Source: a virus (Duplodnaviria; Heunggongvirae; Uroviricota; Caudoviricetes). Taken from it: a stretch of 64,000 bases of DNA. The translations under genes and the position numbers were made by a program. Under the pieces are notes generated by a model. The model saw nothing but the letters and a program-made list of their open reading frames with translations, was not told the DNA's origin and searched no databases. Position 1 is the first letter of the stretch; each line of letters opens with the position of its first letter. The DNA lies in IMG/VR virus record IMGVR_UViG_3300031248_000001; one strand, written 5' to 3'. Shown here piece by piece: positions 15,301 through 60,431 of the stretch.

Positions 15301-16542
15301 GTGACGGATCTGCTGCTGGCCGCTCCCGAGGCGCTCGTAGAGGGGGCGCAGAAGCGCGCGGGGTATGACACGTTCACGAGCGATCCGGACGCGGTAACGC
15401 GGCTCTTGATCGGCGTGCGGAACACGCGGGTCGGCGGGCTGCAGCCGGTCCGCTTCATCATGCCGTTCATGAACACCCCCGCCAACATCCTGAAGCGGTC
15501 TTTCGAGTTCAGCCCCGGCGGCGCGGCGCACGGCCTGGCGCTTCTGGCGAAGAAGGACCCCGAAGCGGCGCTGGTGACGGCGCGCGGGCTGGTCGGCAGC
15601 GCGGTGCTCGTCTACGCAGCGTCCCTGGCAGCGGGCGACAATCTGACGGGCGCGGCCCCGCAAGGAGATCGGGAGAAGGCGGAGTTCTACCGGCTCGGGA
15701 AGCAGCCGTATTCCGTGAAGGTGGGCGGGAAGTGGATGGACTACCGGACGCTCGGCCCCCTGGCCTTCCCGTTCGTGGTGGCAGCCGCCTTCCACGACGC
15801 TTACACGCGGGAGAAGAAGATCCCTGACAGCCAGCGGATCAGCGAGGCCGCGGGGGCGCTGGGGAAGTCCATCGTGGATCAGACCTTCTTTAAGGGCCTT
15901 TCCGATCTGGTGGAGGCGATAGAGAACCCGGGTCGCGCAGGCGGAAACCTGGTCGGCAACGTCGCTGGCGGGTTCGTCCCCCTCTCCGGCCTCGCCCGCA
16001 ACATCGCCCAATCTCAGGACCCGTACGTGCGCGACCCGCAGGGCATTTACGAACGCATCATCAAGGACCTGCCGTTGGTGTCGGGGCGAGTACCGGCACG
16101 GGTAGGGGCGCTAGGTGAAGACCTGCGCCGTCAGGGGAGTGAAGGGCTCCTCGCGCTTTCGCCTTCCGGGGTCTCGCCGGAGACTAAAGACCCGGTGAAC
16201 CGTGAGTTGGCCCGGCTTGGAGTGCGGCCCGGCCTGCCCGGCGATACGCTGACGATCCGCGGTGAGAAGACGAAACTGGAGCGCGATGTGGCGCGGGCTT
16301 ACAAGCAGATACCGGGGCGGCTGATCCGGCAGGAGATTGCGCGGCAGATCGGGACGCCGGGTTATGGGAAGGCGTCGGATGAGGCGCGGCAGAAAGCGTT
16401 GGAACGGCTTATCTCGCACCGGCGGAACCAGGCACAGGAGTTGGTGCGGGCGGCCTTGGCGGCGAAGCGCGATCCCGTGGTGCTGCTGCAGCGGTGGTAC
16501 GACGCGCAGGCACGGAACCTACCGGCGCTTCCCGAACAGTAG
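9370..16542 (+). CDS. giant multidomain virion-associated/polyvalent-like protein (2390 aa): N-terminal CHAP/NlpC-P60-like Cys-His peptidase, Ala/Pro/Lys linkers, internal HExxH zincin-like motif
   Basis: N-terminus has CGPLGCSRFASRALKDAGYDF...FHVGGPTGYSHVGVV. The motif TPPRTPEEWA occurs twice. Motif ALHEHGHVFRRW (HExxH). One uninterrupted ORF. Confidence 0.8.
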   Translation: MTPPRTPEEWAAQVMREHAAANPVVEAARARAGEECGPLGCSRFASRALKDAGYDFASASSSDLRRQILARGGQEVPDPRAGDLFFHVGGPTGYSHVGVVGQDEIIDAPGRSAAYRALVRRGAPRKPSVYVRLPETPNVSVSSTSRGALASRGGTPPRTPEEWAQQQIAAQEAKTPEQWAAEVIRQRMNETEDPRITAVQRRAQAKPGYTQQAAQAPARPAPALGSGKTPRDFIGGVPIFGGMLQGELDRNAAIERQSGQRIRGMMRGPAPAAPSMRDLLNRPTPTRAYIEGLTSPGAGQRANARAATPERQREVRYQATRSAQAFNPFTNDVVRPRTETEKNLAYAEGAFLPSGQAAKNTAEEAWRQAVADEKYPAPPQIPAHKKAEYLKKIRAALPAYNRYVDEQQRLLDQAREASLKEYQRRAAPLHASFDTPERAAEFDRLDEERRQRDARILKGFLARMEPEVVLKSMGELTPLQRQALAAKAGADVVWTLQSPNILRSYVFDAGVTAVADRIGAAAAVKIFSKTPAGQAVVRRLMTEGAIAGGIQQPATRAFVDPNATPQDLALEALAGTAGGAVFGGVVGAAGKGARAVMGPVDVGAVPRPKATKGRVPVVKPKAPVQAEAQAAPIPAEAPVAPVVVAKAKAAAVEPETPAAPLAKAKPPIQARNKAELARALVKQAGLPPEQARAGAEVFDAAAQTAAKQQGLPVEELYGRVSYAKGGKAAEGALQQEGKAPIFYSQLSRVVDAKMPNRAPVSQLRGLLNGAGVKAEELKWTGLDEFLGEAEKAGRPVTKAEVQEWLRGNAVEVREVTKGGSDRAERALAELGYEPVWNDGAYRLRDREGNVYSYHDQIEAPRGERDRIIMAWDDLNTQDATRRQMGTDTKFGQYTLPGGKNYRELLLTLPETQAAKKYRAVVEEINRRADADPEIAALRARAKRLQDAVEGASDLGQARAARDAAENALITLRNERLGDLQAEATRLSDEDARSRYHSPHWDEPNVLAHVRFDERVDADGKRVLHVAEIQSDWHQAGRKKGYKGSLPEGHRVRELDPESQNYKDGFPFVVEDRNHFPLAVGRTPEQAIRNIAGLAPAAPFSKTWHELALKRLLRFAAENDFERVTWDTGLENVRRYEDEFRKNVDEIQWEDTGNKHHVRAVKDGKVVYEDDFDPTTGKGTKTFRDEIPSLDEVVGKDIASQILESSGRAEASNSASWSGKDLTIGGEGMKGFYDQILPAAAAKLGKKWGAKVGKVQVGERDFVEAVKGQYFVRGADGRPYGGGLSRAEAEGLALRVGGDVVPEQAPARRFVDAHSLDITPEMRRSVLTEGQPLFQSTKASVEFTETNDALIRFFKGADLSSALHEHGHVFRRWLPEADQAIAAEWAGATDGNWTRPAEEKFARGFERYLRDGKAPTPELKQVFAKVREWLIGIYRRIKGSDIDVEVSPEMRDLFDRMLGGEGALAKKVAREAKKPGPEYAASINLDKINAPEPLKDLIRETAEANDQWQAQRRGTKTWEETQKRAKELIRTGVITPESLKGVKRGTALNAEEVQAVATLHVRMGDEVLQARNAYEAHPTPENEAAVIAAISRFGVVERTLAGASSEAGRALNIHRLVKETYQGVVGTAERMFGEGKGEPARKARRPADKPFTGERNKDFTPARANAARDRLQKLAGIGKGKGEPEGPLRQEAMTPEERAAAKLFAENLPDLRELGGFYVETYFRDEGVPINFREWSGLMQKDLGGTFTEPQLRTLWDRYLKPEAVQRAKSRVTRDKATEKVLEALGGKDAPEEVLRKLAAFTPDDTVGLTQFLRSQQQWTFADRMHAYWTANILSGVRTQGRNIASNAIFGITQMPVRAVAGAVDFVATAGGKVGERQIYASEALPAAVGYLRGMPAGFRKAAYILQHGFGIEDAGKLEFPNVPEFRGGAANPWNQVGRMLSAADALFKSMSYESELHALATRQALREGLKGKALSERVTDLLLAAPEALVEGAQKRAGYDTFTSDPDAVTRLLIGVRNTRVGGLQPVRFIMPFMNTPANILKRSFEFSPGGAAHGLALLAKKDPEAALVTARGLVGSAVLVYAASLAAGDNLTGAAPQGDREKAEFYRLGKQPYSVKVGGKWMDYRTLGPLAFPFVVAAAFHDAYTREKKIPDSQRISEAAGALGKSIVDQTFFKGLSDLVEAIENPGRAGGNLVGNVAGGFVPLSGLARNIAQSQDPYVRDPQGIYERIIKDLPLVSGRVPARVGALGEDLRRQGSEGLLALSPSGVSPETKDPVNRELARLGVRPGLPGDTLTIRGEKTKLERDVARAYKQIPGRLIRQEIARQIGTPGYGKASDEARQKALERLISHRRNQAQELVRAALAAKRDPVVLLQRWYDAQARNLPALPEQ

Positions 16543-25155: not shown

Positions 25156-26658
25156 TTAAACCCGCCACACGATCTCCAGGTCGTACCGCCCGCGCTCCGG
25201 GTAGGTCGTCAGTCGGATTCGCTCGATCAGCGCCGCGCACGCTTCCTGCCGCGCCAGCGGGTCCGGACCCGCCCCTAGCGCTTCTCTGACCGCCCGCGCC
25301 AATTCCGCCCGCTCCAGCCCCCGCTCCTCCGGTTCCTCTCCCTCTAGCGCCGCCCAGCGCTCCGTCAACAGGGCTTGCTCCGCCTGCACCTCCGCGAGCT
25401 GCCGGTCCAACTCCGCCTCCGTAATGACGCCGCGCCGGTAAAGGGACAGGACCCGCTCTCGTTCCCCGGACTTCGCGTCGATCCGCGCCCGCAGCACCTC
25501 GCGCTCCCTCGCCCGCTCCGCTTCCTGCACCCGCCGACTTTCCGCCTGCCCCGCCAGGCTGGCGTCCACCGCCTCCTCCGTCCGCAGCCACGCCTCGACT
25601 TCCTGCCAGACCGCCTCCTCGATCCGTTCCGCGGCCACCAGCTTCCCCGCGCATTTCGGCCGGTAGCGCCAGCCGTGGCACATATAATAATGGTAGCCCG
25701 AGGTTTGCGGCCAGCCGTGGTAGCGCCGACCGCAGGCGCCGCAGACGAGCAGGCCCCGGAGCAGATAGATGCGTTCGTTCGGACGGGTGCGCGGGCTCCG
25801 GTTCCGCACGAGCACGGCCTGGACCGCCGCCCAGGTCCGGTCATCCACGAGCGCCGGGCACGCCTGCTCTACACCTCTCCGCAGGCGCACCCCCTTGTAC
25901 GTGGTATTCCGGAGAATCTGCCGCACCGTGTTCGGCTGCCAGCGCCCGGAGTAGGGGCGGCCGGTGCGGTAGTGGGTGACGGCACGACCCGCCCAGGCCG
26001 TGGGGACGGCGAGCGCGTTGAGGTAGTCGGCGAGCTTGATGCAGCTCCAGCCCTGGGCCGCCAACTCGAACAGCCCCCGGACGATCCGAGCCTCCTCCTC
26101 GCAAGGCACGATATAGGAGCCGGTCTCCCGCACCTCCACTGCATACCCGTAAGGGGGCCGCGCGCCACCCATCCAGCGTGCCGGCTCCGCGTGCGCCCGG
26201 TGCATCCCTGCCCGGACCCGCTCCGCTATCGAGTCGCGCTCCCAGGCGGAGACGACGGCCAGGAAGCCGATCATCGCCCGGCCACTCGGAGAGGTGGAGT
26301 CGAAAGATTCCGTCACGGAGACGACCGCGCAGCCTGCCTCCGCCAGCGCGTGGATCGCGTTATGCGTCACGCGGATGTCGCGCCCGAGCCGGTCCAACCG
26401 ATACAGATAGACGGTGGTGATGCGGCCGGCACGGGCGGCGGCCAGGAGCGCCGCGCCGCCAGGTCGTCGTTCGAGCGGGATGGTGCCGGAGATTCCGTCA
26501 TCGAGGAACGTCTCCGCAAAGGTGAGCCCGCGCAGGGTGGCGTAGCGGCGGGCTTCGTCTATCTGCGTGTTGATGGTCTGGCGTTCGGCCTGCTCCGTGC
26601 TGGAGACACGGGCATAGAGCGCGTCACTCCCCCCGCCAGACCCGCACGGCCCGCTCAT
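25156..26658 (-). CDS. large serine recombinase (phage integrase)
   Basis: N-terminal resolvase domain (ALYARVSSTEQ…RLDRLGRD), recombinase domain, Cys-rich zinc ribbon and coiled-coil C-terminus; 500 aa. Confidence 0.9.
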   Translation of the reverse strand: MSGPCGSGGGSDALYARVSSTEQAERQTINTQIDEARRYATLRGLTFAETFLDDGISGTIPLERRPGGAALLAAARAGRITTVYLYRLDRLGRDIRVTHNAIHALAEAGCAVVSVTESFDSTSPSGRAMIGFLAVVSAWERDSIAERVRAGMHRAHAEPARWMGGARPPYGYAVEVRETGSYIVPCEEEARIVRGLFELAAQGWSCIKLADYLNALAVPTAWAGRAVTHYRTGRPYSGRWQPNTVRQILRNTTYKGVRLRRGVEQACPALVDDRTWAAVQAVLVRNRSPRTRPNERIYLLRGLLVCGACGRRYHGWPQTSGYHYYMCHGWRYRPKCAGKLVAAERIEEAVWQEVEAWLRTEEAVDASLAGQAESRRVQEAERAREREVLRARIDAKSGERERVLSLYRRGVITEAELDRQLAEVQAEQALLTERWAALEGEEPEERGLERAELARAVREALGAGPDPLARQEACAALIERIRLTTYPERGRYDLEIVWRV

Positions 26659-27388: not shown

Positions 27389-27498
27389 ACTTACGCAGAA
27401 CGGCAGTAGCAGGAAAAAGTTTCCTGCAAAACCTGCAACCTTAGAAGGACTTCTGCCGTCAATTGCAGTAGAAGTAAGAGACGCGGCTTCTTGTAGCA
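27389..27498. promoter_or_regulatory. divergent cI/cro-type control region with candidate operator repeats
   Basis: Repeats GCAGTAG x2, CCTGCAA x2 and inverted ACGGCAG…CTGCCGT. Lower GC than the flanks. Confidence 0.4.
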
Positions 27499-27747
27499 AT
27501 GACAAACGGACAGATACCAGAGACCGGCCCGGAGCTCCGGGCACTGCGGATCGAGGGAGAGCTTTCCCTGGTGACGGTCGCCGAGGGGCTGGGCGTGAAC
27601 CGCACGATGCTCTCTAACTGGGAGCGCGGGATGGCGATGCCCGCTGACGTGCCCGCCCGTTACCGCAAGCTCGTGCAGGAGTTGACAGCGGCGCGGGCAG
27701 CGAAGGTGCGCGAGCGGTGCCGCAAGCCGCGGAGGGCGGAGGCGTGA
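27499..27747 (+). CDS. XRE-family HTH protein (Cro-like)
   Basis: LSLVTVAEGLGVNRTMLSNWERG. Confidence 0.65.
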   Translation: MTNGQIPETGPELRALRIEGELSLVTVAEGLGVNRTMLSNWERGMAMPADVPARYRKLVQELTAARAAKVRERCRKPRRAEA

Positions 27748-29759: not shown

Positions 29760-30154
29760 GCACCGTAATCCACACCTGCCAGGCCCCCCTAGAACGCACC
29801 TACGGCCCGCAAAACTCGCAGCCCCTGGTCCGCGATCACACCTGCTCCTGGCAGACCGTCTGCCCGCAGTGCAGCGTGCGGGTAGTGGATGCCGACCTCG
29901 AAGAACTGACCCCCTCGCACTGGTGCCGCGAATGCGCCCACCCGCTCTATCGCCATGTCGGCAAAGTGGACGGCGTGGAAGAGGGGTTCGCTATCGACTG
30001 CGTGAGCGGTGCGGTGCTGGATGACGGGCGGTGCCCGTGTGGTTGGGAGATCCAGTGGGCGGTGGCGTTGACTGAGGCTCCCGGCGACCACTTCCCGCTG
30101 ATGCCGTCCCTGATGGACACGCTGGGAGCGGCTTTGAAAGAGAGCATCCGATGA
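29756..30154 (+). CDS. Cys-rich hypothetical protein
   Basis: AGAGGATCAGGA site before the ATG. Motifs CPQCS, CREC. Confidence 0.45.
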
Positions 30155-30801
30155 CCACGCAGCTGGCGGTGGAATTGACGGTGGAGCGGGTGCGGGAGTG
30201 GCTGAACCTGCCCAACTTGCAACATTGGAACGAGCGATATTCTGAAAACCCGGTTACCAAGTGTTACGAGTGGAGTGGCGCAAAATCTCAGGGCTATGGC
30301 GCTGTTTCGATACTCGGGAAGGTCTACAGGGCGCATCGTATCGCTTACTTATTAGGGCGCGGCACAATCCCGCCAGGGCTTCTCGTTTGTCACAAATGCG
30401 ATAACCGGTGCTGCGTCAATCCCGATCACCTGTTTCTGGGCACTCATCAAGATAACAATGCCGATGCGGCCCGCAAAGGACGAATGGCCTCGGGCGATCA
30501 CAGTGGGTCTAGGCTGCATCCCGAGCGGTTAGCTCGCGGGTCACGCCATGGTTCTCGCACTCACCCACATCGAGTGCCCCGAGGTTCAAGAATCGGAACA
30601 TCGAAACTGACCGAGACGCGCGTACTGCAAATCAAAATACACCTAGCCAATGGCAAGAACTGTCGTCAGGTTGCCTTGGAGTTTGGTGTTTCTCGATCAT
30701 CTATTTCAAGGATCAGATCGGGGAAGGCGTGGCGGCACCTCACCGCCTCCGTCGCCCTCCGCATCCTGAACGAAGTGGCGCCCGAGGAGCAAGACAAGTG
30801 A
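30151..30801 (+). CDS. HNH (AP2-type) homing endonuclease with C-terminal HTH; low-GC island
   Basis: [14 protein letters not shown]…[28 protein letters not shown]. Local GC ~53%. Confidence 0.65.
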
Positions 30802-33577: not shown

Positions 33578-34060
33578 ATGGCAACGACGTTCCGCAACGA
33601 TGAATCCCTCGCGCGGCTGGGCGCGGACCTGATTTCGATGCACCACAAGCACCTCCTCGAAAACGGAGTGCGGGTGGAGTTTCTGTTCCGCGACGACACG
33701 CCCAAGAGCGCGGGCAAAGAGCAATGGGGCGTGGCGCGGAAGATCACGAACCTCAATGCCTTCCTCGCCGGGGAAGCGGAAGACGAGGGCGCGGACCCGT
33801 TCTTCTGCATCGTCATCTCCGAGCCGATCTGGACAGATCTGACCAACAACCAGCGCCTCGCGCTTCTCGATCACGAGCTGTGCCACTGCTGGGCGGAAGA
33901 GGACAAGGAAGGCGCGGTCAAGCTGACCATCCTCGGCCACGACCTGGAGGAGTTCGGCTCCATCGTGGAGCGTTACGGGCTCTGGCGTGAGGACGTGAAG
34001 CTCATGGCCCGCAGCATCGAGAACGCGCAGCTTCGGCTCACGCTGGATGAGGCTGCTTGA
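33578..34060 (+). CDS. putative HExxH metallopeptidase-like phage protein
   Basis: LLDHELCHCWAEEDKEG (HExxH). Confidence 0.45.
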   Translation: MATTFRNDESLARLGADLISMHHKHLLENGVRVEFLFRDDTPKSAGKEQWGVARKITNLNAFLAGEAEDEGADPFFCIVISEPIWTDLTNNQRLALLDHELCHCWAEEDKEGAVKLTILGHDLEEFGSIVERYGLWREDVKLMARSIENAQLRLTLDEAA

Positions 34061-34125: not shown

Positions 34126-35034
34126 ATGGAACTGACAACCGAGATCTTGACGAAGCTGGGCGCCCCGTTTAGCGCCGACGAACTGGAATTCCTGCCGCGG
34201 GCCACGTCGGGCGGCAAGGCCATGGCCCTCCCCTACATCGACGCGCGCAACGTGATGCGGCGGCTCGATGAGGTGGTCGGCCCCGAGAACTGGTCTTTCG
34301 ACTTCGACCTCTTGGAGCCGACCGGGAAGATGGTCAAGGGCCGGCTGCGGGTGTGCGGTACGGAGAAGTGCGATGCCGGCGAAGCAGCCGCCGAAGACGA
34401 GGTGCTGAAGTCGGCGGTTAGCGACGCCCTGAAGCGGGCCGCCGTTCACTTCGGGATCGGCCGCTACCTCTACCATATGCCGCGCGTGTGGGCCGCCTTC
34501 GACGCGCAGAAGAAGCGGTTTACCGAGACGCCGCAGATCAGCGAGGCCGCGGAACGGCGCGCCGTCGCCCTGGCGCTCGGGGGCGCGCTGGTTTTGACCC
34601 GCCCCGCCGTCCAGGTGAACACCGAGACGGGCGAAGTTATCGAACGGCCCCCGGCCACTAACGGAACGAAACGGGAATGGACCCCGCCCGCGCCTTCCGC
34701 CGCCGGGAAAGACGCGGACATCGCGCGCGGCAAGTTCTTTGCCGACCTCAAGAAGCTCGCGCCCGACCTGGCGGGAGATGCCGCCGAAGGTGCCCGTCAC
34801 TGGCTCTATGGTCTGCTGCTCGGGAAAGACCGCCAGGTAGATCCGGCCGGGTGGCCCGCCGACTACTGGCAGAAGCTCCACGAGGCGCTGCAGAACGCGG
34901 CCGACGAGCAGAAGCTGGGCCGGCTCGTGAAACAGGCCAAGGACCGCGCTGTAAGCCTCGGCACGGTGGAGGGAGACCCGTTCGCGGAGGGTGACGCGCA
35001 AGCGGCTTTGCCGGCGCAGGCGAGGGGGCTCTAG
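34126..35034 (+). CDS. Rad52/Rad22-family single-strand annealing protein
   Basis: …AAVHFGIGRYLY… plus a C-terminal low-complexity tail. Confidence 0.7.
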   Translation: MELTTEILTKLGAPFSADELEFLPRATSGGKAMALPYIDARNVMRRLDEVVGPENWSFDFDLLEPTGKMVKGRLRVCGTEKCDAGEAAAEDEVLKSAVSDALKRAAVHFGIGRYLYHMPRVWAAFDAQKKRFTETPQISEAAERRAVALALGGALVLTRPAVQVNTETGEVIERPPATNGTKREWTPPAPSAAGKDADIARGKFFADLKKLAPDLAGDAAEGARHWLYGLLLGKDRQVDPAGWPADYWQKLHEALQNAADEQKLGRLVKQAKDRAVSLGTVEGDPFAEGDAQAALPAQARGL

Positions 35035-35787: not shown

Positions 35788-35987
35788 GCGACCAAGCCCT
35801 GCCCCTCGATTACGAATTGGACCCGTTCGACGGAGCGCCCGTGACGGAAACGGAGAGTGGGCCCTGCGCCAAATGCGGACGGCGCGAACCGGACGGGCAC
35901 CTGTGGGAGCCGGATCGTCTCTGCTCGGATTGCTTTTCGGGGCCGGATCGGTATGTGCGGGATGCGGAACGGGAGCCGAGAGTATGA
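35784..35987 (+). CDS. small Cys-rich protein
   Basis: CAKCGRREPDGH…CSDC. Confidence 0.4.
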   Translation: MSDQALPLDYELDPFDGAPVTETESGPCAKCGRREPDGHLWEPDRLCSDCFSGPDRYVRDAEREPRV

Positions 35988-36220
35988 AGATCCTCTATTC
36001 CTGCGGCTGCGAACGCCCCGCGCGAGACGTGGCCTGTGACCACTACTGCCCTACGGCCGAGGTGCTCAAGGAGTTGTGCGCCACCAGCAAGACGGCGCTG
36101 TTCGCGGCCCCGAAAGGTGAGGCCACGTCTCGGCTCAGTCGGCTGCATCACGCGCACCTGCGCGCGTTGACGGCACACTACGCGCCGGGTGGGCGGTGGA
36201 GTTCGGGGAAGGCGGCTTAG
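35984..36220 (+). CDS. small Cys-rich protein
   Basis: SCGCE…CDHYC. Confidence 0.4.
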   Translation: MKILYSCGCERPARDVACDHYCPTAEVLKELCATSKTALFAAPKGEATSRLSRLHHAHLRALTAHYAPGGRWSSGKAA

Positions 36221-36399
36221 GCGGCGCAGAATCCGCCCTTCCGTCCTTCGTCGCGGGGGTTGGTCGGCAAGTTGAGCTTCTCGCGGAGCCACTCCTCAAC
36301 GAGAGCTTGGATGGATTTGTCCTGTTCGGCGGCGGCAAGGCGCAGCGCCTTGTGGGTTTCAGGATCAATGCGAACGTTGAGGCGGCGGTCGTCGGCCAT
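36217..36399 (-). CDS. ribbon-helix-helix (CopG/antitoxin-like) DNA-binding protein, divergent from the HNH-helicase gene
   Basis: LNVRIDPETHKALRLAAAEQDKSIQALVEEWLRE. Confidence 0.55.
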   Translation of the reverse strand: MADDRRLNVRIDPETHKALRLAAAEQDKSIQALVEEWLREKLNLPTNPRDEGRKGGFCAA

Positions 36400-36450
36400 C
36401 GGGCTTCTCCTCTACCTGGAAGTATAACGCCCCCAAGCAACAAAGGATAC

Positions 36451-36467
36451 GTTGCGCCAGTGGCGCA
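36451..36467. promoter_or_regulatory. perfect 17-bp palindrome TTGCGCCAGTGGCGCAA overlapping a putative -35 (TTGCGC-18-TACAAT) upstream of the HNH-helicase gene
   Basis: Read directly in the divergent intergenic region 36400-36500. Confidence 0.45.
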
Positions 36468-36500
36468 ATTTGGGCTACAATAGTGTGGGAGGGCTAGACG

Positions 36501-38504
36501 GTGCGGCGGCGGTTCAACAAGTCGGAGCGGATAACGCTTTACCTCTCGGCCGATGGTAGGTGCCAAGCGTGTGGCGCTAGGCTCGGCGGGGGATGGCACG
36601 GTGACCACAAAACTCCTTACGCTGCTGGCGGGCCTACGGAAGTCGAAAACGGGCAAGCCCTTTGCCCTAGTTGCAACCAGACGAAAGGGGTTCGGATGAC
36701 CGGGAACCTTGTGCGGCGGCGCTGGCAGGAAGACTGGCTGTCGGCCGCGCGGATGAAGGTCGAGTTGGGTGAAAAGTTCCTCGTCGGAAACATCTTTTGC
36801 GGCAGCGGCAAGACCTTCGGGACTAACGATGTAACCAACGAGCTTTACCGGCGTGGGATCGTTGACGCCGTGGTCGTGCTTGTTCCGCGCATTAACCTTT
36901 GCCGCCAATACGAACTAGATTGGAGCGAAGCTAAGTGGCTCTACTCAGAGCCGATGGGTGAGATAGTCCACCGACAGAACGATGCCCCTCTCTTTCGGGT
37001 AGGGAGGTCGAATCATGAGAACTTTGGGTATGTGACCACCTACGATTCGGTGGTGAGCCGACTCGATCTACACCTCAGAGAACTTCAGGGCAAGAGGTTT
37101 GCCCTAGTCTTGGACGAGGCCCAGCGGCTGGGCGCGCGTGTAGCGGATGATGACGGCACGAAGGCCGCGACAGCGGTTCTCTCACTAGCCGAGCGGGCGA
37201 CCTTCGTCCAATTGGTTACCGGAACTCCATACCGCGCAGACGGGCAACCTCTAGTCCTAGCGAGATATAGCGCGCCGGACAGTGAGGGGCGCCGAACATT
37301 AAACGCCGATGTTAGGGCTACTTACCTAGAGGGTGTCCGAGAAGGTTACTTGCGTCCATTCGAGGCGTTGCTAAAAGACGGCAAGGGCGTGCAGGAGTAC
37401 CTGTCTGGTGGAACCGAGTACCTTCGCTTGGCTGAGATGGAGCGGGGGTTTTGCAAAATTGTAGAAGCGCCTGAATTCTGGAAGCCGCTCGTAGATGAGA
37501 CGATAGCCCTAGTGAAGGCGGCCCAGGCTGTGGACATTAGAGATCCCAAGGAACCGGGCTTCCAGCGTCTTTGCGGGCTCATCGGCGCGTGCCGACAATC
37601 CCACGCCCGCCAGATCATCGCCTATCTCCAAGAGAAGCGTGTGAGCGCAATCCTGGCTGTAAGCGAACAGGCGAACGCCGCTAAAGAGCTTGAGCGGTTT
37701 AAGGACGGAAACACCGACATCCTCGTGACGGTGGCGATGGCCCACGTCGGTTACGATCACAAGCCAATTACTGTTGTCTGCTGCCTCAACCATTACCGAC
37801 AGCGGTCATGGCTCGATCAATTCGCAGCTCGCGGGTTGCGGATGATGCGCGGGATTCCGAGAACGGATCAGACCCTGCGTTACATCGGGCCAGACGACAT
37901 CTTGCACCGTGTGTGGGCCGATGAGATGCGGCGTAATTCGGATATGGGGATGTTAGAGCGTGATATGCGTGGAGTGGCCGAGGAGCGGGATCAGGAGAGA
38001 GCCACCCCAGAAGCTTTTGTTATGCGTGATGTCGAGGTTTTGGGGGGTCGCGCGATTGGAATGGACGAGCAGTACGACCTAGACTACCTCGGTTTCGCGC
38101 ACATCGACGAATTGGCTAAACGATTCAATATCAGTGCCGCGCCGCACACGGGGCTCGCCGCATTGTTGATTAGCCAGGGCGCAGAGATCCCGACAGGAGA
38201 TCCCTATCGAGCCCAGCCGCCCTTACCTATAGAGTCTAGGCCCAAGATGACCGAGCAGGATTGGGAGAGCACCGTGAGCAGTAGGCTCAACGATCTGTGT
38301 ATAGCCTGCGACTCGAAGTTGAAGAAGAAGTTGGGCGAGGATCGTTGGCAGTTTGGGGAGACCGGAAGTCAAGCGTGTAAGTACTTCAGGGTGACTAACT
38401 GGAAAAACCAGGGCGTGCAGTTCATGCTCAAGGTCGAAGCCTACATTAAAAACACCTTCATACCCGAAAGGCTGGGGGCCGACGGTGACGATCTCCGCAG
38501 TTAG
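36501..38504 (+). CDS. HNH nuclease fused to SF2 (DEAD/DEAH-like) helicase; lower-GC gene
   Basis: N-terminus CQACG…HGDHKTPYAAGGPTEVENGQALCPSCNQTKG (HNH). Walker A GSGKTFGT, Walker B LVLDEAQ. Body GC ~55%. Confidence 0.75.
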   Translation: MRRRFNKSERITLYLSADGRCQACGARLGGGWHGDHKTPYAAGGPTEVENGQALCPSCNQTKGVRMTGNLVRRRWQEDWLSAARMKVELGEKFLVGNIFCGSGKTFGTNDVTNELYRRGIVDAVVVLVPRINLCRQYELDWSEAKWLYSEPMGEIVHRQNDAPLFRVGRSNHENFGYVTTYDSVVSRLDLHLRELQGKRFALVLDEAQRLGARVADDDGTKAATAVLSLAERATFVQLVTGTPYRADGQPLVLARYSAPDSEGRRTLNADVRATYLEGVREGYLRPFEALLKDGKGVQEYLSGGTEYLRLAEMERGFCKIVEAPEFWKPLVDETIALVKAAQAVDIRDPKEPGFQRLCGLIGACRQSHARQIIAYLQEKRVSAILAVSEQANAAKELERFKDGNTDILVTVAMAHVGYDHKPITVVCCLNHYRQRSWLDQFAARGLRMMRGIPRTDQTLRYIGPDDILHRVWADEMRRNSDMGMLERDMRGVAEERDQERATPEAFVMRDVEVLGGRAIGMDEQYDLDYLGFAHIDELAKRFNISAAPHTGLAALLISQGAEIPTGDPYRAQPPLPIESRPKMTEQDWESTVSSRLNDLCIACDSKLKKKLGEDRWQFGETGSQACKYFRVTNWKNQGVQFMLKVEAYIKNTFIPERLGADGDDLRS

Positions 38505-39129
38505 TAACCTCGCGGTCTCGCCCGAGGAAGACCGCCGGCAACAGTTTTACGTTCAACTCCTTCAGGATAGCCGTAACGTCAACGGCCTGCTTGACCTATT
38601 GGGGCTAGTCGTGGAACGCGAGGACTGGACACGCCTTAGGGACGTAGACGGCCAACCGCTCACCTTCCGGGCGTACATAGAACTCCCCTATGGAGACGGC
38701 GGTATCGGGTGGAGTGTAGACAATCTGCGGATCATCCTGAGGCTAAAACACGACCACGAGACGCCCGGCCGGGAGATTGCGGAGACGGTCGCGCGGCTGG
38801 GTTGGATGCGAGAACGCGTAGAGGACTTGCTCCTAACAGATCGCCCGCGCAGCGGACCCAAACCGAACGGAGCAATTTCATTACCACGTAATGAAATTAG
38901 GCAAGGAAACAGTTCAGCCTATCTTCGTTCACGTTTGGCGCAAGAGGCACCCGATGTGCTGGAGCGGATGAAGGCCGGCGAGTTCCGCAGCGTGAGGGCC
39001 GCCGCACGAGAGGCAGGGATCATCAAGGACAAGACGCCTCTAGAGAAGGCGCAATGGGCGTGGGGGAAGTTGACCCAGCAGGAGCGGCAGGAATTCTTGG
39101 AGTGGATCAGGACAACGGAAAAACCGTGA
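38485..39129 (+). CDS. hypothetical protein
   Basis: ORF. Confidence 0.45.
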   Translation: MTISAVSNLAVSPEEDRRQQFYVQLLQDSRNVNGLLDLLGLVVEREDWTRLRDVDGQPLTFRAYIELPYGDGGIGWSVDNLRIILRLKHDHETPGREIAETVARLGWMRERVEDLLLTDRPRSGPKPNGAISLPRNEIRQGNSSAYLRSRLAQEAPDVLERMKAGEFRSVRAAAREAGIIKDKTPLEKAQWAWGKLTQQERQEFLEWIRTTEKP

Positions 39130-40052
39130 AGCGAGCTGCCGTCGATCATCCGAAGATCCAGCGCCTCCAGCGCCGCCTCTCCCTGACCCGTTTCGAGGCG
39201 ATGGGGCTGCTAGAGGCTCTCTGGCACTTCACGGGCCGCTACGCGCCGCAGGGCGACCTCGGGCGCTGGTCCGATGAAGAAATCGCGGCCTGGATCGAAT
39301 GGCCCGGAGACCCTGGTGAGTTGATCGGAACGCTGGTCATTTGCGGCTGGTTGGACGTGAACGAGACCTATCGCCTGGTAGTCCATGATTGGCCCGACCA
39401 CGCCGACGAAGCGACGAAAGTAAGCCTGAAACGGGCCGGAAAGACGTTTGTCGTCGCGACGAATTCAGGCACCGTTCCGACCAAACCCCAACCTGTTGCG
39501 ACAGTGTCGGGACCGCCTGAGCCTGAGCCTGAGCCTGAGCCATGCCATGCCATGCCAGAGCCTCCCCTACGGGGAGGTACTAACATGGCGGCTGAAACGG
39601 CGAGTTCCGCCGGCCGGAGTGAGCCTATCGCTCCTGCTCCGAGGTTTCGGGCCGAGGATTGGGAAGCGTTCATCGCGGTTTACCCGCCGCGGAACGGGGA
39701 CCGGGGGCTGGCGAAGGGCCGGGAGAAGTTCATGGCGCTCATCAAGTCCGGGGTGCCGCCGGGTGACCTGCTGGAGGGAGCGCAGCGGTATCGGGCCTGG
39801 GCGGATGCCGAGGGCTCTACCGGCTCGCAGTTCGTGCAGCAAATTCCGACGTGGCTGAACCGGAAGGGCTGGCAGGAAGAGTGGGCGATCAGGACGGGAG
39901 GCAACGGGAATGGACCACACCCAGCAGGGCAACGAGGAAACCGGGCGGCGTCGGAGTCTCTTGAAGCCGAAAGAGACCGCATCCTCGGAAACCTCGCCAA
40001 GCGCAACGCCGCTGCAGGTAGCGATCACGGAAGGCTTGCTGGTGATGGGTGA
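39126..40052 (+). CDS. putative replication-associated protein with PEPEPEP linker
   Basis: N-terminal domain followed by an acidic Pro-Glu linker encoded by a microsatellite. Lies in the replication/recombination block. Function inferred. Confidence 0.4.
   Translation: MKRAAVDHPKIQRLQRRLSLTRFEAMGLLEALWHFTGRYAPQGDLGRWSDEEIAAWIEWPGDPGELIGTLVICGWLDVNETYRLVVHDWPDHADEATKVSLKRAGKTFVVATNSGTVPTKPQPVATVSGPPEPEPEPEPCHAMPEPPLRGGTNMAAETASSAGRSEPIAPAPRFRAEDWEAFIAVYPPRNGDRGLAKGREKFMALIKSGVPPGDLLEGAQRYRAWADAEGSTGSQFVQQIPTWLNRKGWQEEWAIRTGGNGNGPHPAGQRGNRAASESLEAERDRILGNLAKRNAAAGSDHGRLAGDG
39520..39560. repeat. adjacent in-frame microsatellites: (CCTGAG)x4 then (ATGCC)x3
   Basis: Sequence cctgagcctgagcctgagcctgagccatgccatgccatgcc, read directly. 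Confidence 0.7.
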
Positions 40053-54114: not shown

Positions 54115-54547
54115 GTGGTCGGATAGTGAGAAGGCCACGGCGCTCGCGGCCCTGGATGCGAATGGGGGGAACGTCTCCCATACTGCCCGGCAGCTTGGTA
54201 TCCCCCGGATGACCCTCGCGGATTGGGCCGCTGGCCGGGTGACGGACGATGTGACGGAACTCCGTCAAGAGAAAAAAGAGAGCTTGGCAGACGCCTTCGA
54301 AGCGCTGGCCCGCAAGCTCGTGGCGGGGGTTGGAGTGTGGGTCGACCAACGGTTAGAGGAAGGCTGCAACCCGGCGACGGTGGGGACCACGCTCGGTATC
54401 GTAGTGGACAAGATGCAGCTTCTCCGCGGTGACCCCACCCATATCGCCGGGCAGGCTGGTATGCCGCCGCGCCGCCTGGACGGCATCATTGAGCAACTTG
54501 GGGGAGATCGGCGGGAAGAAGAATGCACCCCGCAACCTACGCCTTGA
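54101..54547 (+). CDS. terminase small subunit (putative)
   Basis: N-terminal HTH (GNVSHTARQLGIPRMTLADW). Lies immediately upstream of and overlapping the large terminase gene. Confidence 0.5.
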   Translation: MARREWSDSEKATALAALDANGGNVSHTARQLGIPRMTLADWAAGRVTDDVTELRQEKKESLADAFEALARKLVAGVGVWVDQRLEEGCNPATVGTTLGIVVDKMQLLRGDPTHIAGQAGMPPRRLDGIIEQLGGDRREEECTPQPTP

Positions 54548-56748
54548 ACGAGGAAACACTCCTCGACCTTGCGATCCGGGCAAAGTCACTCCCGTTTGAG
54601 CAGCAGGAACGAATTGCGGTAGAGCTGGAGGCGCTGATCCCGCTGGCCAAGTTCGGCCCACGTTGGCTGCGAGGGACAGCGCCGAAGACCTGGCGCTGGG
54701 AATGGGAATACCAGCAGCGCATCTATCAGGCGTTGGATCGGATCACCCGTGGCGAATGCCGGCGGATGATGCTGTTCGTCCCGCCCCGGCACACCAAGAC
54801 GGAGACGGTCACGGTCCGCTACAGCGCGTGGCGGATAGAGCGTGAGCCGACTGAACGGGTCATCGTCGCCGCTTACAATCAGGACCAAGCGAACCTCTAC
54901 GCACGGAAGATCCGCCGCATTGTGCAGGCGCGGGTGCCGCTGGCGAAGGACTCGAAGCGCGTAGACGAGTGGGAGACCGCGGAAGGCGGGGGGTTGATCG
55001 CCAGAGGCGTTGGCGCGGGCGTAACCGGCCGCGGCGGTAATCTCATCGTCATCGATGACCCGGTGAAGTCACGTGAGGAAGCCGACTCCGACGCCTACCG
55101 GGAACGGTGCTGGGACTGGTATACAAACGACCTGTGGACCCGCCAGGAGCCCGGCTGCGCGATTCTGCTGATCCTGACCCGCTGGCACGAAGACGACCTC
55201 GCCGGTCGGCTCCTGCAAGCGCAGAAGGACGGCGGGGAGTTCGCCGAGCAGTGGGAGGTGTTGAACTTCCCGGCACTCGCGGAAGAGAACGATCCGCTGG
55301 GCAGAGAGCCTGGCGAGGCGCTGTGTCCGGAGCGGTTCGATGAGCACGGCCTGCAGGTAGCGAAGACGGTCCTCGGGCGCAACTTTTACGCGCTCTACCA
55401 GGGGCGACCGCAGGCGGCGGAAGGCGCGATCTTCAAGCAGTCGTGGTTCCGCTACCACACGGAAGAGGGCGCGTTCTACGTCCTGCATCACCCGGATGGG
55501 AAGCAGGAGCGGGTAAGGAAGGCCGACTGCTGGCGGTTCGCTACCGGCGACTTCGCGGCGAGTGAGAAGACGAACGCGGACTGGACGGTGGTGCCCGTGT
55601 GGGCAGTCACTCCGCGCCGACAGCGGTTGCTGCTTGACGTGCTGCGGGAGCGCTGGGAAGGCCCAGAGGCGAAGGGCCTGGTACGGACCGCGTTCACCAA
55701 GCACAACCTTTCCTCGTTCGTGGTGGAACGGAACGGGCTCGCCCTGCCGATGGTGCAAGACCTGCTCCGCGAAGGCTACCCGGTCCGCGGCGTGGTCGTG
55801 CATCGCGATAAGGTAGCGAGAGCACAGGGCAGCGCCGCTTACTACGAGGCGGGCCTGGTCTATCACGCGCAGGGCGCGGCGTGGCTGGATGCGTGGGAAG
55901 CGGAGCACCTGACGTTTCCGAACGGCGCCCACGACGACCAGGTGGATACCGGCTCCCTCGCTGCTGAATCGATTAAGCCCGGTATGGAGATCATCAGCGA
56001 ATTCTACGAACCGCTCCACGTCGCCCACGACCCGCTGGAGATCGACCCCGCCCTCCCGCTCCTCTGCGGCTGGTGCTTCGATCCCTACCCGGCCTGGATC
56101 ATCGGCCAGCTCGACGCGACAGGGGCCGGCCGCGAGGGGACGGGTCAATACCGGGTGCTGGCGTGTGCGGTAGGTGGGCCGGAAGAGGGCGCGTATACGT
56201 TCGCGGAACGTATCCTGCACCTGCTGCGGCGGCAGGGACTCGACCCGGCGGCGCTGGACCTGCGGCATTTCGCGCACCCGCGGCACTGCGGCGTCAAGGG
56301 GCATGCCGGGCGGAATATGGATGCGTGGATGCAGTTGGCGACCGGGGTGCCGGCCGTGGTCGGGTATGATGAGCGGCGGCGACCGGAGAAGAATGGTAGG
56401 GCGGCATTAGGGGTGCGGTTGATCCCTGGGGACCCGGACCGCCACACGCGGGACGAGGCGCTGCGCGGGCGGCTCAAGACGTTGGAGAGAGGGATACCCG
56501 CTTTGGCGGTGGACCCCGGCTGTCGGCCGTTGATCGCGGCGCTTACCGGCGGCTACTGCTGGAAGGTGCAGGTGAGCACGGGGCTGCCGACGGGCGAGGT
56601 GGACCCGAACCCGAGCAGTGCGCTGGTGGAGGCGCTCACCGTGAGTTTGGGCGGGTTGTATGCCGGGGCGCCGCGGCCGGATGAGGATGAGGGCTGGGGG
56701 CCGGTTGGGACGGCGAGTGGGGCCGGTAGACGAAGGGAACGGGTATGA
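54523..56748 (+). CDS. terminase large subunit
   Basis: Motifs FVPPRHTKT, LIVIDDP, TRWHEDDL; 741 aa. Confidence 0.85.
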   Translation: MHPATYALNEETLLDLAIRAKSLPFEQQERIAVELEALIPLAKFGPRWLRGTAPKTWRWEWEYQQRIYQALDRITRGECRRMMLFVPPRHTKTETVTVRYSAWRIEREPTERVIVAAYNQDQANLYARKIRRIVQARVPLAKDSKRVDEWETAEGGGLIARGVGAGVTGRGGNLIVIDDPVKSREEADSDAYRERCWDWYTNDLWTRQEPGCAILLILTRWHEDDLAGRLLQAQKDGGEFAEQWEVLNFPALAEENDPLGREPGEALCPERFDEHGLQVAKTVLGRNFYALYQGRPQAAEGAIFKQSWFRYHTEEGAFYVLHHPDGKQERVRKADCWRFATGDFAASEKTNADWTVVPVWAVTPRRQRLLLDVLRERWEGPEAKGLVRTAFTKHNLSSFVVERNGLALPMVQDLLREGYPVRGVVVHRDKVARAQGSAAYYEAGLVYHAQGAAWLDAWEAEHLTFPNGAHDDQVDTGSLAAESIKPGMEIISEFYEPLHVAHDPLEIDPALPLLCGWCFDPYPAWIIGQLDATGAGREGTGQYRVLACAVGGPEEGAYTFAERILHLLRRQGLDPAALDLRHFAHPRHCGVKGHAGRNMDAWMQLATGVPAVVGYDERRRPEKNGRAALGVRLIPGDPDRHTRDEALRGRLKTLERGIPALAVDPGCRPLIAALTGGYCWKVQVSTGLPTGEVDPNPSSALVEALTVSLGGLYAGAPRPDEDEGWGPVGTASGAGRRRERV

Positions 56749-59843: not shown

Positions 59844-60329
59844 CTAGTACTCAGAAGGGCTCGAAGCCAAAGCCGAAGACTCGGAAAACCTCCCGTTGAG
59901 GGTCAGTATCCGTTCTCGGAGCACGTCCCGCCGCTGCAACAGTTCGCTATCCACACGCCAGTACTTAGGCCTGCCTTTGTTCGGAGTTCGTGTTTCGGCG
60001 AGTTCTAGGACGAGTTGCGCTTGTTCGCGTTTGATGATCAGGTAAGGCAGAATAGCCCGAATAAGGGCTAGCATTCGGTTGTTGGTCCATCGAAGCCTAA
60101 AGATCGGCTTCCCGATGGTCCGCTGTGGGTTTTGCCGTATAGATGGAAAGAGTGAGTCGAGAGCATCTAGCGCGGCCTTCGACGTGTTGGTAAAGACAAC
60201 ATAACCTTCATGGCACGGTGACCGCCCGCACCGGCTCCTGCGGAGCCCGATACCAATGTTGCCTTCGGCGTCAATCATTGCTGCTACGTAAGCGAGTTGG
60301 GCTTCTCTCGGCCAGGTTTGAATGTCCAT
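59844..60329 (-). CDS. LAGLIDADG-family homing endonuclease (free-standing, low-GC island, opposite strand)
   Basis: LAYVAAMIDAEGNIGI motif. GC ~52-55%. Confidence 0.65.
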   Translation of the reverse strand: MDIQTWPREAQLAYVAAMIDAEGNIGIGLRRSRCGRSPCHEGYVVFTNTSKAALDALDSLFPSIRQNPQRTIGKPIFRLRWTNNRMLALIRAILPYLIIKREQAQLVLELAETRTPNKGRPKYWRVDSELLQRRDVLRERILTLNGRFSESSALASSPSEY

Positions 60330-60431
60330 AGTCCAATTCTATCCCAAAGTGCCGTAGAGAAACCTAATACGGAACAATGCAATCTCTACAGGCCCCGAGC
60401 GCGGTGCTCGGGGCCTGTCTCTTTACTCCTG

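What the first reader, a model, noticed from the sequence alone, without database searches (positions are those of the whole stretch)
36217..38504. HNH nuclease-SF2 helicase fusion controlled from a promoter overlapped by a perfect 17-bp palindrome, with a divergently encoded RHH protein
The palindrome TTGCGCCAGTGGCGCAA overlaps the -35 of a TTGCGC-18-TACAAT promoter for the 667-aa HNH-helicase. The only minus-strand gene in this block is a 60-aa RHH protein starting ~50 bp away, a textbook autoregulated switch. The helicase gene body has lower GC than the genome, which suggests recent acquisition. Nuclease-helicase fusions are a common chassis of anti-phage or anti-plasmid systems as well as of phage replication.
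Basis: partly seen in the sequence, partly recalled or inferred. Interest (0 to 1): 0.6.

Follow-up and report, generated by a model that had tools for sequence, protein, structure and literature searches.

The report
Repressor-gated phage replication operon with nuclease-helicase
A small DNA-binding repressor gene and its palindromic site sit at the start of a temperate phage's replication genes, and the first two of those genes are a recently acquired, uncharacterised nuclease-helicase plus partner pair that looks like replication/recombination equipment rather than a defence system.

Summary

Comparison with relatives changes the interpretation in two ways.

1. **The RHH gene and intergenic region form a portable regulatory cassette.** Phages with 70-80% identical RHH proteins keep both -10 boxes and, in one of the two lineages, an intact TGCGCC-N3-GGCGCA. 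Their cassette faces different replication genes: an HTH_36 initiator plus a DnaB-like helicase, or RNase H, an AEP primase and UvrD. It gates the replication module, not the helicase specifically.

2. **The helicase belongs to a rare family that travels with a partner gene.** About 209 clusters at 50% identity match. A translationally coupled ~215-aa partner (38485-39129) always follows it. The pair is the lowest-GC stretch of the window. In other phages it sits beside replication or recombination genes, and in Streptomyces on linear plasmids, in at least one next to a relaxase gene. Nothing significant matches known defence families. The nearest fold is RadD.

My verdict is a Mnt/CopG-like repressor switch controlling a replication operon headed by an acquired accessory nuclease-helicase cassette. 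This is moderately interesting. RHH binding and the enzyme's role remain inferred.

The parts
36217..36399 (-). Stand-alone ribbon-helix-helix (RHH) protein, 60 aa. It is encoded antisense inside a long plus-strand early operon. Its stop codon overlaps, convergently by 4 nt, the stop of the upstream plus-strand gene (35984-36220).
   Evidence: Pfam hits: HicB 32.2 bits (cutoff 21), Antitox_RHH 27.8 bits (cutoff 27.2), RHH_1 and others. PHROG hits to Arc-like repressors are weak. No co-transcribed toxin gene is present. Only two homologue clusters exist, at 80% and 70% identity, both in the same antisense position.
36421..36426 (-). Candidate -10 box of the RHH promoter. It reads TATACT on the minus strand and is followed by the Shine-Dalgarno sequence GAGGAG and ATG at 36399.
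   Evidence: Read directly from the sequence. The box is conserved as TATACT in L019 and TATAAT in L020/L021 in the intergenic alignment. Function is inferred.
36452..36468 (.). Candidate RHH operator: the palindrome TTGCGCCA-G-TGGCGCAA, with core TGCGCC-N3-GGCGCA. It overlaps the -35 of the rightward promoter.
   Evidence: This is the only site in the window with 1 mismatch or fewer to the core. Sites with 2 mismatches or fewer occur at chance frequency (11 against 12.8 expected). L020/L021 keep perfect arms with a different centre (TAT instead of AGT) and have a second site, AACGCC-AGT-GGCGCA, next to the RHH -10. In L019 the right arm is degenerate. Binding is not tested.
36452..36481 (+). 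Candidate promoter of the replication operon: -35 TTGCGC, 18-nt spacer, -10 TACAAT.
   Evidence: This is the only TTG-N19-22-TANAAT in the window on either strand. The -10 is conserved as TATAAT or TAGAAT in RHH-bearing relatives. The generic scan does not call it because the -35 matches 3 of 6.
36501..38504 (+). HNH-SF2 helicase fusion, 667 aa. It comprises an HNH nuclease (residues ~21-64), two RecA-like lobes (residues ~73-465) and a helical C-terminal region (residues ~500-667) of unknown function.
   Evidence: Pfam and PHROG hits. Across 58 homologues the HNH residues C21, C24, D35, H36, C55 and N59 are invariant and N50 and C58 nearly invariant (at least 90%). For the helicase motifs, G103/K104, D205/E206, R444 and R447 are invariant and T105 and A207 nearly invariant. 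AlphaFold2 pLDDT is 85.6. The best Foldseek matches are RadD (E=1e-12), HsdR and SNF2 motors, and among viral models an uncultured-phage SF2 helicase (E=1.8e-30).
38485..39129 (+). Conserved partner protein, 214 aa. Its start overlaps the helicase stop by 20 nt. The C-terminal ~70 aa form a confidently modelled helical module with an HTH-like motif (…RL..E.PDVLERMKAGEFRSVRAAAREAGI…).
   Evidence: It lies immediately downstream of the helicase in 32 of 51 loci and gives 33 profile hits. It has the same low GC as the helicase. There is no Pfam, PHROG, PADLOC or NCBIfam hit. AlphaFold2 pLDDT is 75, with residues 143-210 above 90. No PDB fold match was found.
34126..35034 (+). Context: Rad52/Erf-like single-strand annealing protein, upstream in the same early operon.
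   Evidence: PF04098 E=2.9e-13 and phrog_1097 E=1e-29.
39102..40052 (+). Context: DnaD-like replication initiator or replisome organiser, directly after the cassette.
   Evidence: phrog_9474 E=6.7e-24, phrog_270 and phrog_1701 (DnaD-like loader). Gene calls come from the identical contigs.

Best explanation
The window is a temperate phage genome, and this locus is the head of its DNA-replication gene module.

**Regulatory cassette.** A stand-alone RHH repressor of the Arc/Mnt/CopG type is encoded antisense inside the early operon. I infer that it binds the palindrome TGCGCC-N3-GGCGCA as a dimer or pair of dimers. That would occlude the -35 of the rightward promoter (TTGCGC-18-TACAAT) and keep the replication genes off while RHH is made. 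I also infer that early-operon transcription running antisense through the 183-bp RHH gene after induction lowers RHH expression and releases the promoter. This RHH-plus-intergenic unit is portable and is found in front of different replication genes in related phages.

**Acquired cassette.** The first two genes behind the promoter in this phage are a horizontally acquired, translationally coupled pair. One is an N-terminal HNH nuclease fused to a RadD/HsdR-like SF2 motor. The other is a ~215-aa helical partner with an HTH-like C-terminus. I infer that the pair is an accessory DNA-processing machine, in which the motor remodels or translocates on branched or double-stranded DNA and the HNH domain cuts. 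It would serve recombination-dependent replication alongside the phage's Rad52-like annealing protein and DnaD-like initiator. It is neither the replicative helicase nor a defence system.

**Shown:** the anatomy, domain integrity, conservation, synteny and GC anomaly. **Inferred:** RHH binding, the direction of regulation, and the biochemical role.
For: - **Phage identity and module order:** serine integrase, Cro-like HTH, Rad52-type annealing protein, DnaD-like initiator, Dcm methyltransferase, TerL and portal.
- **The RHH cassette is conserved independently of the helicase.** P0122 (80% identity, L019) and P0123 (70% identity, L020-L023) are again lone opposite-strand genes, placed after the recombination or other early genes. 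They face HTH_36 initiator plus DnaB-like genes, or RNase H plus AEP primase plus UvrD.
- **The intergenic DNA aligns.** Both -10 boxes and the left arm are conserved in both lineages, and both arms in L020-L023. DNA similarity to those phages is otherwise confined to the RHH gene and its flank.
- **Operator pattern:** all arm positions are identical between the window and L020, while 2 of the 3 central bases differ. L020 also has a second copy sharing the 11-bp core CGCCAGTGGCG.
- **Helicase synteny in phage contexts:** L001 has AAA_24, SSB and PriCT_2 upstream. L002 has RNase H and PrimPol-DnaB downstream. L007 has AAA_25 upstream. L008 has RecT and DnaB downstream. L074 has RNase_T upstream and HTH_36 plus an IstB-like loader downstream.
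- **Partner:** it is the only conserved neighbour and overlaps the helicase stop codon in every locus inspected.
- **Catalytic residues:** those of both domains are invariant or nearly so.
- **Defence and structure searches:** PADLOC gives only a weak partial PbeA motor match. The nearest solved fold is the repair helicase RadD.
- **GC:** the cassette boundaries coincide with the GC trough.
Against: - No binding, transcription or enzymatic data exist.
- The palindrome is not beyond chance at window scale. Its left arm doubles as the -35, so part of its conservation is explained by promoter function alone. In L019 the right arm is degenerate although the RHH beta-strand is identical.
- The -35 is poor by the E. 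coli consensus, and the host's promoter rules are unknown.
- The helicase-partner pair moves between very different mobile elements: phages, Streptomyces linear plasmids beside relaxase genes, and variable islands with TA, NUDIX and STAND genes. That mobility is also typical of defence or counter-defence cassettes.
- The partner has no recognisable fold, so the proposed targeting role is a guess.
Confidence: 0.5

Rival explanations
1. The HNH-helicase and its partner form a two-gene defence or inter-element competition system, for example superinfection exclusion or anti-plasmid activity. The prophage would carry it as a moron, and the RHH would set its expression level in lysogens.
For: - The nuclease-helicase architecture is typical of such systems.
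- The cassette is self-contained, low in GC and horizontally mobile among phages, linear plasmids and variable islands.
- It has its own promoter region in most loci.
- There is a weak PbeA motor match.
- The Streptomyces neighbourhoods include TA modules, NUDIX and a STAND NTPase.
Against: - No PADLOC family matches beyond a partial 25-bit motor hit.
- In six phage-like contexts it lies among replication or recombination genes and on the same strand as them.
- On the plasmids inspected, one copy lies next to a MobF relaxase gene.
- A promoter whose -35 is covered by a repressor site is the opposite of what a lysogen-expressed defence gene needs, unless the RHH is absent in lysogens.
Confidence: 0.2
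2. The palindrome is not an operator. It would be a chance inverted repeat that happens to contain the -35, or a weak hairpin, and the RHH would regulate something else or be a remnant antitoxin.
For: - One to two such palindromes are expected per window, and another sits inside the RHH ORF.
- The terminator scan flags it on the minus strand.
- The right arm is degenerate in L019.
- The best Pfam hits for the RHH are antitoxin-type families.
Against: - Perfect arms with a changed centre are kept in L020/L021, together with a second copy of the 11-bp core next to the RHH promoter.
- The hairpin is not unusually stable (z = -0.72) and is followed by only 3 T residues. The L020 version has no T tract.
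- There is no toxin gene in an operon with the RHH in any lineage.
- No other candidate target site exists in the window.
Confidence: 0.15
3. The N-terminal HNH is a selfish homing endonuclease that invaded a helicase gene, and the fusion has no joint function.
For: - HNH-less family members exist. About a quarter of the listed hits lack HNH, as do most copies in Caldilineaceae genomes.
- The phage carries other free-standing HNH genes (PF13392 at 30151-30801).
Against: - The HNH is in frame at the same N-terminal position, with catalytic residues invariant or nearly so, across 58 diverse sequences at 31-43% identity.
- It shares the GC of the rest of the gene.
- AlphaFold2 models it confidently as part of the protein.
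Confidence: 0.05

Closest known systems
P22 immI region: Mnt and Arc RHH repressors with the divergent Pmnt/Pant promoters (from established knowledge)
   Same: A small RHH repressor gene is transcribed divergently from a phage promoter. A symmetric operator overlaps that promoter. It acts as a secondary switch, separate from the main CI/Cro-type immunity region, and antisense or convergent transcription is part of the logic.
   Different: The regulated genes here are replication genes, not an antirepressor. Sequence similarity to Arc-like families is only marginal (E=0.004-0.007). There is a single operator, no second RHH gene, and no experimental data.
CopG (RepA) of plasmid pMV158 and related RHH copy-number repressors such as omega of pSM19035 (from established knowledge)
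   Same: An RHH protein of about 45-70 aa binds a (pseudo)symmetric element overlapping the -35 box of the promoter that drives the element's replication genes.
   Different: CopG is co-transcribed with repB from the promoter it represses. Here the RHH gene is divergent and antisense to upstream transcription, and the element is a phage.
E. coli RadD (PDB 6jde, 7r7j, 8h5y), an SF2 DNA-repair helicase
   Same: It is the best solved-structure match to the motor (Foldseek E=1e-12; phmmer E=3e-4). It is an accessory rather than replicative SF2 enzyme, acting in recombination and repair.
   Different: The NCBIfam RadD model scores 31.7 bits against a 720-bit cut-off. Identity is 17-19%. RadD has no HNH domain and no conserved partner, and its C-terminal region differs.
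Nuclease-motor fusions: human ZRANB3 (SNF2 motor plus HNH), type I HsdR, Cas3 (from established knowledge)
   Same: One polypeptide joins an SF2 motor to a nuclease. ZRANB3 specifically couples an HNH domain to fork remodelling. HsdR is among the top fold matches.
   Different: The domain order differs (HNH is N-terminal here). No homology was detected beyond the generic motor fold and HNH motif. No methyltransferase, specificity or CRISPR partners are present.
Saccharomonospora phage PIS 136 gp093 'DEAD-like helicase' and the next gene, gp094
   Same: This is the only isolated phage in the collection searched that has a family member (27% identity over residues 2-459). The downstream gene matches the partner profile.
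   Different: It is uncharacterised, its neighbourhood differs (IS200/IS605 and tRNA genes), and it has no divergent RHH.

Membership tests
Ribbon-helix-helix (Arc/MetJ/CopG) superfamily | An N-terminal beta-strand followed by two helices within about 45 residues, recognised by RHH profile models | tested here: met
   HicB (RHH part) scores 32.2 bits against a cutoff of 21, and Antitox_RHH 27.8 against 27.2. Eight further RHH families give weaker hits, all over residues 4-43.
Ribbon-helix-helix (Arc/MetJ/CopG) superfamily | Binds a repeated or symmetric operator through the paired beta-strands of a dimer | not testable with these tools
   A candidate symmetric site exists 52 bp from the gene and is conserved in one related lineage. 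Binding was not measured.
Type II toxin-antitoxin module (HicAB, ParDE, BrnTA or similar) | The antitoxin gene is co-transcribed with an adjacent toxin gene | tested here: not met
   There is no same-strand neighbour. The gene is flanked by a convergent plus-strand gene and the divergent helicase, in the window and in L019-L023. BrnA scores 16.9 bits against a cut-off of 60.
HNH (beta-beta-alpha-metal) nucleases | Profile match plus the catalytic D-H, Asn and metal ligands and the two CxxC zinc pairs | tested here: met
   PF01844 scores 41.8 bits (cutoff 21.4) and HNH_5 28.8 bits (cutoff 27.5). C21, C24, D35, H36, C55 and N59 are invariant and N50 and C58 nearly invariant (at least 90%) in 58 sequences. 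Activity was not tested.
Superfamily 2 helicases/translocases (ResIII / type I restriction / RadD-like) | Two RecA-like lobes with Walker A, DExx, motif III and motif VI arginines | tested here: met
   ResIII scores 45.6 bits (cutoff 22.5). Helicase_C scores only 18.8 bits, below its 23.5 cutoff. GSGKT (101-105), DEAQ (205-208), TGT (240-242) and R444/R447 are conserved. The two-lobe fold matches RadD, HsdR and SNF2.
RadD/YejH orthologues | Full-length match to the equivalog model | tested here: not met
   NF053632 scores 31.7 bits against a cut-off of 720 and covers only residues 355-451.
Replicative (DnaB-type, SF4) phage helicase | DnaB/DnaB_C or RepA-like hexameric helicase domains, serving as the sole helicase of the module | tested here: not met
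   There are no DnaB hits. Relatives that have this helicase also encode a separate DnaB or PrimPol-DnaB.
Known anti-phage defence systems (PADLOC-DB 2.0) | Significant full-length match of the proteins to a system's models, with the system's other genes adjacent | tested here: not met
   The only matches are PbeA at 25.5 bits over residues 101-229 and a 15.8-bit REase_II hit. There are no hits for the RHH or the partner, and no pbeBCD or dnd genes nearby.
Sigma-70-type promoter | -35 and -10 hexamers with 16-18 nt spacing and at least 9 of 12 matches to consensus | tested here: inconclusive
   The match is 8 of 12 (3 of 6 in the -35, 5 of 6 in the -10) with spacing 18, and the scan does not call it. 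It is nonetheless the only TTG-N19-22-TANAAT in the window, and its -10 is conserved in relatives. The host's promoter consensus is unknown.

The most novel reading that the evidence does not exclude
The HNH-helicase plus partner pair could be a previously unrecognised mobile two-gene system that mobile elements use on other DNA. It might attack or exclude competing phages or plasmids, or process DNA ends, which would fit its position within about 10-20 kb of the ends of Streptomyces linear plasmids. In this phage it would have been captured behind a repressor-gated promoter, whose RHH gene is switched off by antisense early transcription.
Probability: 0.15. Interest if true: 0.6.

Novelty: new variant of a known kind. 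Interest (0 to 1): 0.35.

Why it matters
- **A testable secondary switch.** The locus gives a compact example of a second regulatory switch in an uncultured temperate phage that probably infects Chloroflexota or Actinomycetota. It is a portable RHH-operator cassette that gates whichever replication module lies downstream.
- **A new gene pair to study.** It points to a rare, uncharacterised nuclease-motor-plus-partner pair shared by phages and Streptomyces linear plasmids.
- **Possible payoffs.** If the pair proves to be a fork- or end-processing enzyme, it would add a new accessory factor to recombination-dependent replication of mobile elements. If it proves to be a competition system, it would be a new defence family.
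- **Limits.** Neither outcome would overturn current understanding.

Tried and rejected
- **Exact 17-mer search in IMG/VR.** It returned 10 hits, all with unrelated flanks and no RHH, so they are chance matches.
- **Degenerate operator-plus-promoter pattern.** It found nothing in IMG/VR or in the JGI metagenome contigs.
- **Back-translated RHH search of IMG/VR.** It found no relatives.
- **Nucleotide search of the region against isolated phages.** It returned only a 78-bp match within the annealing-protein (SSAP) gene.
- **Rfam at a permissive threshold over 35.5-39.5 kb, and a tRNA scan.** Both found nothing.
- **Hairpin or terminator reading of the palindrome.** The stability is ordinary (z = -0.72) and there is no T tract.
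- **Toxin-antitoxin reading of the RHH.** There is no toxin partner.
- **Dedicated RHH-helicase pairing.** A divergent RHH is present in only 2 of about 50 helicase loci. The second case (L001) uses an unrelated Arc-like protein and unrelated GACACTA repeats.
- **Homology between the window's initiator and those behind the RHH in relatives.** None was found.
- **Partner protein.** It has no family hit, and its fold search found nothing at E = 1 or better.
- **Literature searches.** Searches for HNH-helicase fusions in phages, PbeA, and RHH control of prophage replication modules found nothing describing this family. PbeA belongs to an archaeal phosphorothioation-dependent system and matches here only through the motor.
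- **Terminal redundancy.** No repeat of 25 bp or longer exists in the window.
Full report
**1. What is in the sequence**

- A 60-aa ORF lies on the minus strand at 36217-36399.
- The 101-bp intergenic region contains the palindrome TTGCGCCA-G-TGGCGCAA at 36452-36468.
- A promoter-like pair follows: TTGCGC (36452-36457), an 18-nt spacer and TACAAT (36476-36481).
- The Shine-Dalgarno sequence GGGAGGG (36487-36493) precedes a GTG-initiated 667-aa ORF at 36501-38504.
- The small protein is a ribbon-helix-helix protein (HicB 32.2 bits, Antitox_RHH 27.8 bits and eight weaker RHH families).
- The large protein has an N-terminal HNH domain (41.8 bits), a ResIII motor domain (45.6 bits) and a sub-threshold Helicase_C match.
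- GC is 0.575 for the helicase against 0.651 for the window.

**2. Is it more than chance?**

The palindrome alone is not. Perfect inverted repeats with 8-bp arms and gaps of 0-3 occur 14 times, against 7.7 +/- 3.2 expected. A second 8+1+8 palindrome lies inside the RHH ORF. The chance of one falling in this 101-bp spacer is about 0.01.

TTG-N19-22-TANAAT occurs once in the window on both strands, at this spot, against 0.62 expected. The generic sigma-70 scan misses it because the -35 matches only 3 of 6 consensus bases. The hairpin is not unusually stable (z = -0.72), and no Rfam family matches.

**3. Genomic setting**

The window is a temperate phage genome. It encodes:
- a serine integrase at 25156-26658 (minus strand);
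- a Cro-like HTH at 27499-27747, heading a long plus-strand early block;
- a Rad52/Erf-like annealing protein at 34126-35034;
- a DnaD-like replication initiator at 39102-40052;
- a Dcm methyltransferase;
- a large terminase at 54523-56748 and a portal at 60297-62591.

Independent gene calls on an identical 59.8-kb metagenome contig show that the RHH is the only minus-strand gene in about 16 kb. Its stop codon overlaps the stop of the upstream plus-strand gene by 4 nt, so early transcription must run antisense through it.

**4. The RHH and intergenic region form a portable regulatory cassette**

A search of 5.8 billion proteins found only two RHH homologue clusters, at 80% and 70% identity. 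In both the gene is again a lone opposite-strand gene inside an early operon, placed after the upstream recombination or other early genes (after RecT in L020-L023, again with a 4-nt overlap). The genes it faces are not HNH-helicases:
- L020-L023 have an HTH_36 initiator followed by a DnaB-like helicase.
- L019 has a 156-aa protein, RNase H, an AEP primase and UvrD.

DNA similarity between the window and these phages is essentially confined to the RHH gene and its flank. Within the intergenic region several blocks align:
- the RHH Shine-Dalgarno sequence;
- a minus-strand -10 (TATACT or TATAAT);
- a GGATACG block;
- TTGCGCC-N3-GGCGCA;
- the rightward -10 (TACAAT, TAGAAT or TATAAT).

Between the window and L020 all arm positions are identical, while two of the three central bases differ. 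L020 also carries a second site (AACGCC-AGT-GGCGCA) that abuts the RHH -10 and shares the 11-bp core CGCCAGTGGCG with the window's site. In L019 the right arm has decayed.

This pattern is what a protein-binding site shows. The evidence is modest, because the left arm is also the -35 and the regions share ancestry. No other site with 1 mismatch or fewer exists in the window. Exact or degenerate pattern searches of IMG/VR and JGI contigs gave only chance hits or nothing.

**5. The helicase belongs to a rare family with an obligate partner**

The exhaustive search found 209 clusters at 50% identity with E at or below 1e-30, among 1.84 billion representatives. The best non-identical relative is 42% identical by BLASTP. 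Only one isolated phage, Saccharomonospora phage PIS 136, has a member.

Across 58 sequences the catalytic residues of both domains are conserved. Of the HNH residues, C21, C24, D35, H36, C55 and N59 are invariant, and N50 and C58 are nearly invariant. Of the helicase motifs, G103/K104, D205/E206, R444 and R447 are invariant, and T105 and A207 are nearly invariant.

The AlphaFold2 model (pLDDT 85.6) is closest to RadD, then to HsdR and SNF2 motors. Its best viral match is an uncultured-phage SF2 helicase. It fails the RadD equivalog model badly, and relatives encode a separate DnaB, so it is not the replicative helicase.

Clustering all ORFs from 51 loci shows one conserved neighbour only. This is the gene immediately downstream (window 38485-39129, 214 aa), present in 32 loci with an overlapping or abutting start. 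It has no family or fold match. It ends in a confidently modelled helical module carrying a widespread HTH-like motif. Helicase and partner together form the lowest-GC stretch of the window, and the GC trough ends at the partner's stop codon.

**6. Where the pair occurs**

In phage-like contigs the pair lies among replication and recombination genes:
- L001 has AAA_24, SSB and PriCT_2 upstream.
- L002 has RNase H and PrimPol-DnaB downstream.
- L007 has AAA_25 upstream.
- L008 has RecT and DnaB downstream.
- L074 has RNase_T upstream and an HTH_36 initiator plus an IstB-like loader downstream.
- L071 is an Actinoplanes prophage early region.

In Streptomyces and related genera the partner is longer (about 430-460 aa). 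There the pair lies on linear plasmids such as SAP1, or in variable islands, and in one inspected plasmid next to a MobF relaxase gene. The islands also hold Replic_Relax relaxases, ParB_N, NUDIX and TA genes. HNH-less homologues occur in Caldilineaceae genomes.

A divergent small RHH upstream of the helicase occurs only in the window lineage and in L001. In L001 the protein is an unrelated Arc-like one, and the operator-like DNA is five GACACTA repeats around a TTGACA-17-TATAAT promoter. Other relatives start the cassette after an intergenic gap of 150 bp or more, with lineage-specific repeats or a terminator. PADLOC gives only a partial 25-bit PbeA motor hit.

**7. Interpretation**

The best-supported reading is a secondary, Mnt/CopG-like switch. 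A stand-alone RHH repressor would occupy a symmetric site over the -35 of the promoter that starts the replication operon. In this phage the operon is headed by an acquired accessory nuclease-motor pair. That pair probably processes branched or broken DNA for recombination-dependent replication.

The anatomy, conservation, synteny and GC anomaly are shown. RHH binding, the sign of its effect on each promoter, relief by antisense early transcription, and the biochemical role are inferred.

The main rival is that the pair is a mobile defence or competition cassette. The pair's mobility keeps this alive, but the pair's consistent replication context and the lack of any defence-family match count against it.

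Its 'textbook autoregulated switch for an HNH-helicase' is only partly right.

**8. Verdict**

This is a well-formed but not surprising regulatory architecture, combined with a rare, uncharacterised nuclease-helicase-partner family. I rate it a new variant of known kinds, with interest about 0.35.

Noticed in passing
window 27409-27427 and 27499-27747: The perfect palindrome GCAGGAAA-AAG-TTTCCTGC lies about 70 bp upstream of a Cro-like HTH_3 gene, between the serine integrase and the start of the early operon. This is probably the phage's main immunity or early switch.
   Followed up: partly
L001 6680-7000: In a 42%-identical helicase relative, the 320-bp spacer next to an unrelated divergent Arc-like gene holds five GACACTA repeats around a consensus TTGACA-17-TATAAT promoter. 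A ~250-nt leader with two long imperfect hairpins (6892-6918, 6924-6946) follows. This is an independent repressor-gated start of the same cassette.
   Followed up: partly
L007 6845-6885: Tandem TTTCAGAGATTT-type repeats (iteron-like) sit directly upstream of the helicase homologue in another phage contig.
   Followed up: no
L072 (Streptomyces avermitilis plasmid SAP1, SAVERM_RS00075/RS00070) and L073 (CP108716): Streptomyces linear plasmids carry the helicase with a long (~430-460 aa) partner. The pair is often within about 10-20 kb of a replicon end, and in CP108716 it lies immediately after mobF.
   Followed up: partly
L043-L059 (Caldilineaceae MAGs): HNH-less homologues of the helicase lie in a recurring neighbourhood in Caldilineaceae genomes, without a detectable partner. 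This suggests a cellular relative of the phage motor and hints at a Chloroflexota host.
   Followed up: no
window 9370-16542: A single 2390-aa ORF lies in the structural block. It was not analysed.
   Followed up: no
window 36336-36352: A second perfect 8+1+8 palindrome, CAAGGCGC-A-GCGCCTTG, lies inside the RHH coding sequence. It shows how easily such repeats arise in this GC-rich DNA.
   Followed up: yes
window 30151-30801 and 33578-34060: The early operon also contains a free-standing HNH_3 endonuclease gene and a PhageMetallopep-domain gene, according to gene calls on the identical contig.
   Followed up: no
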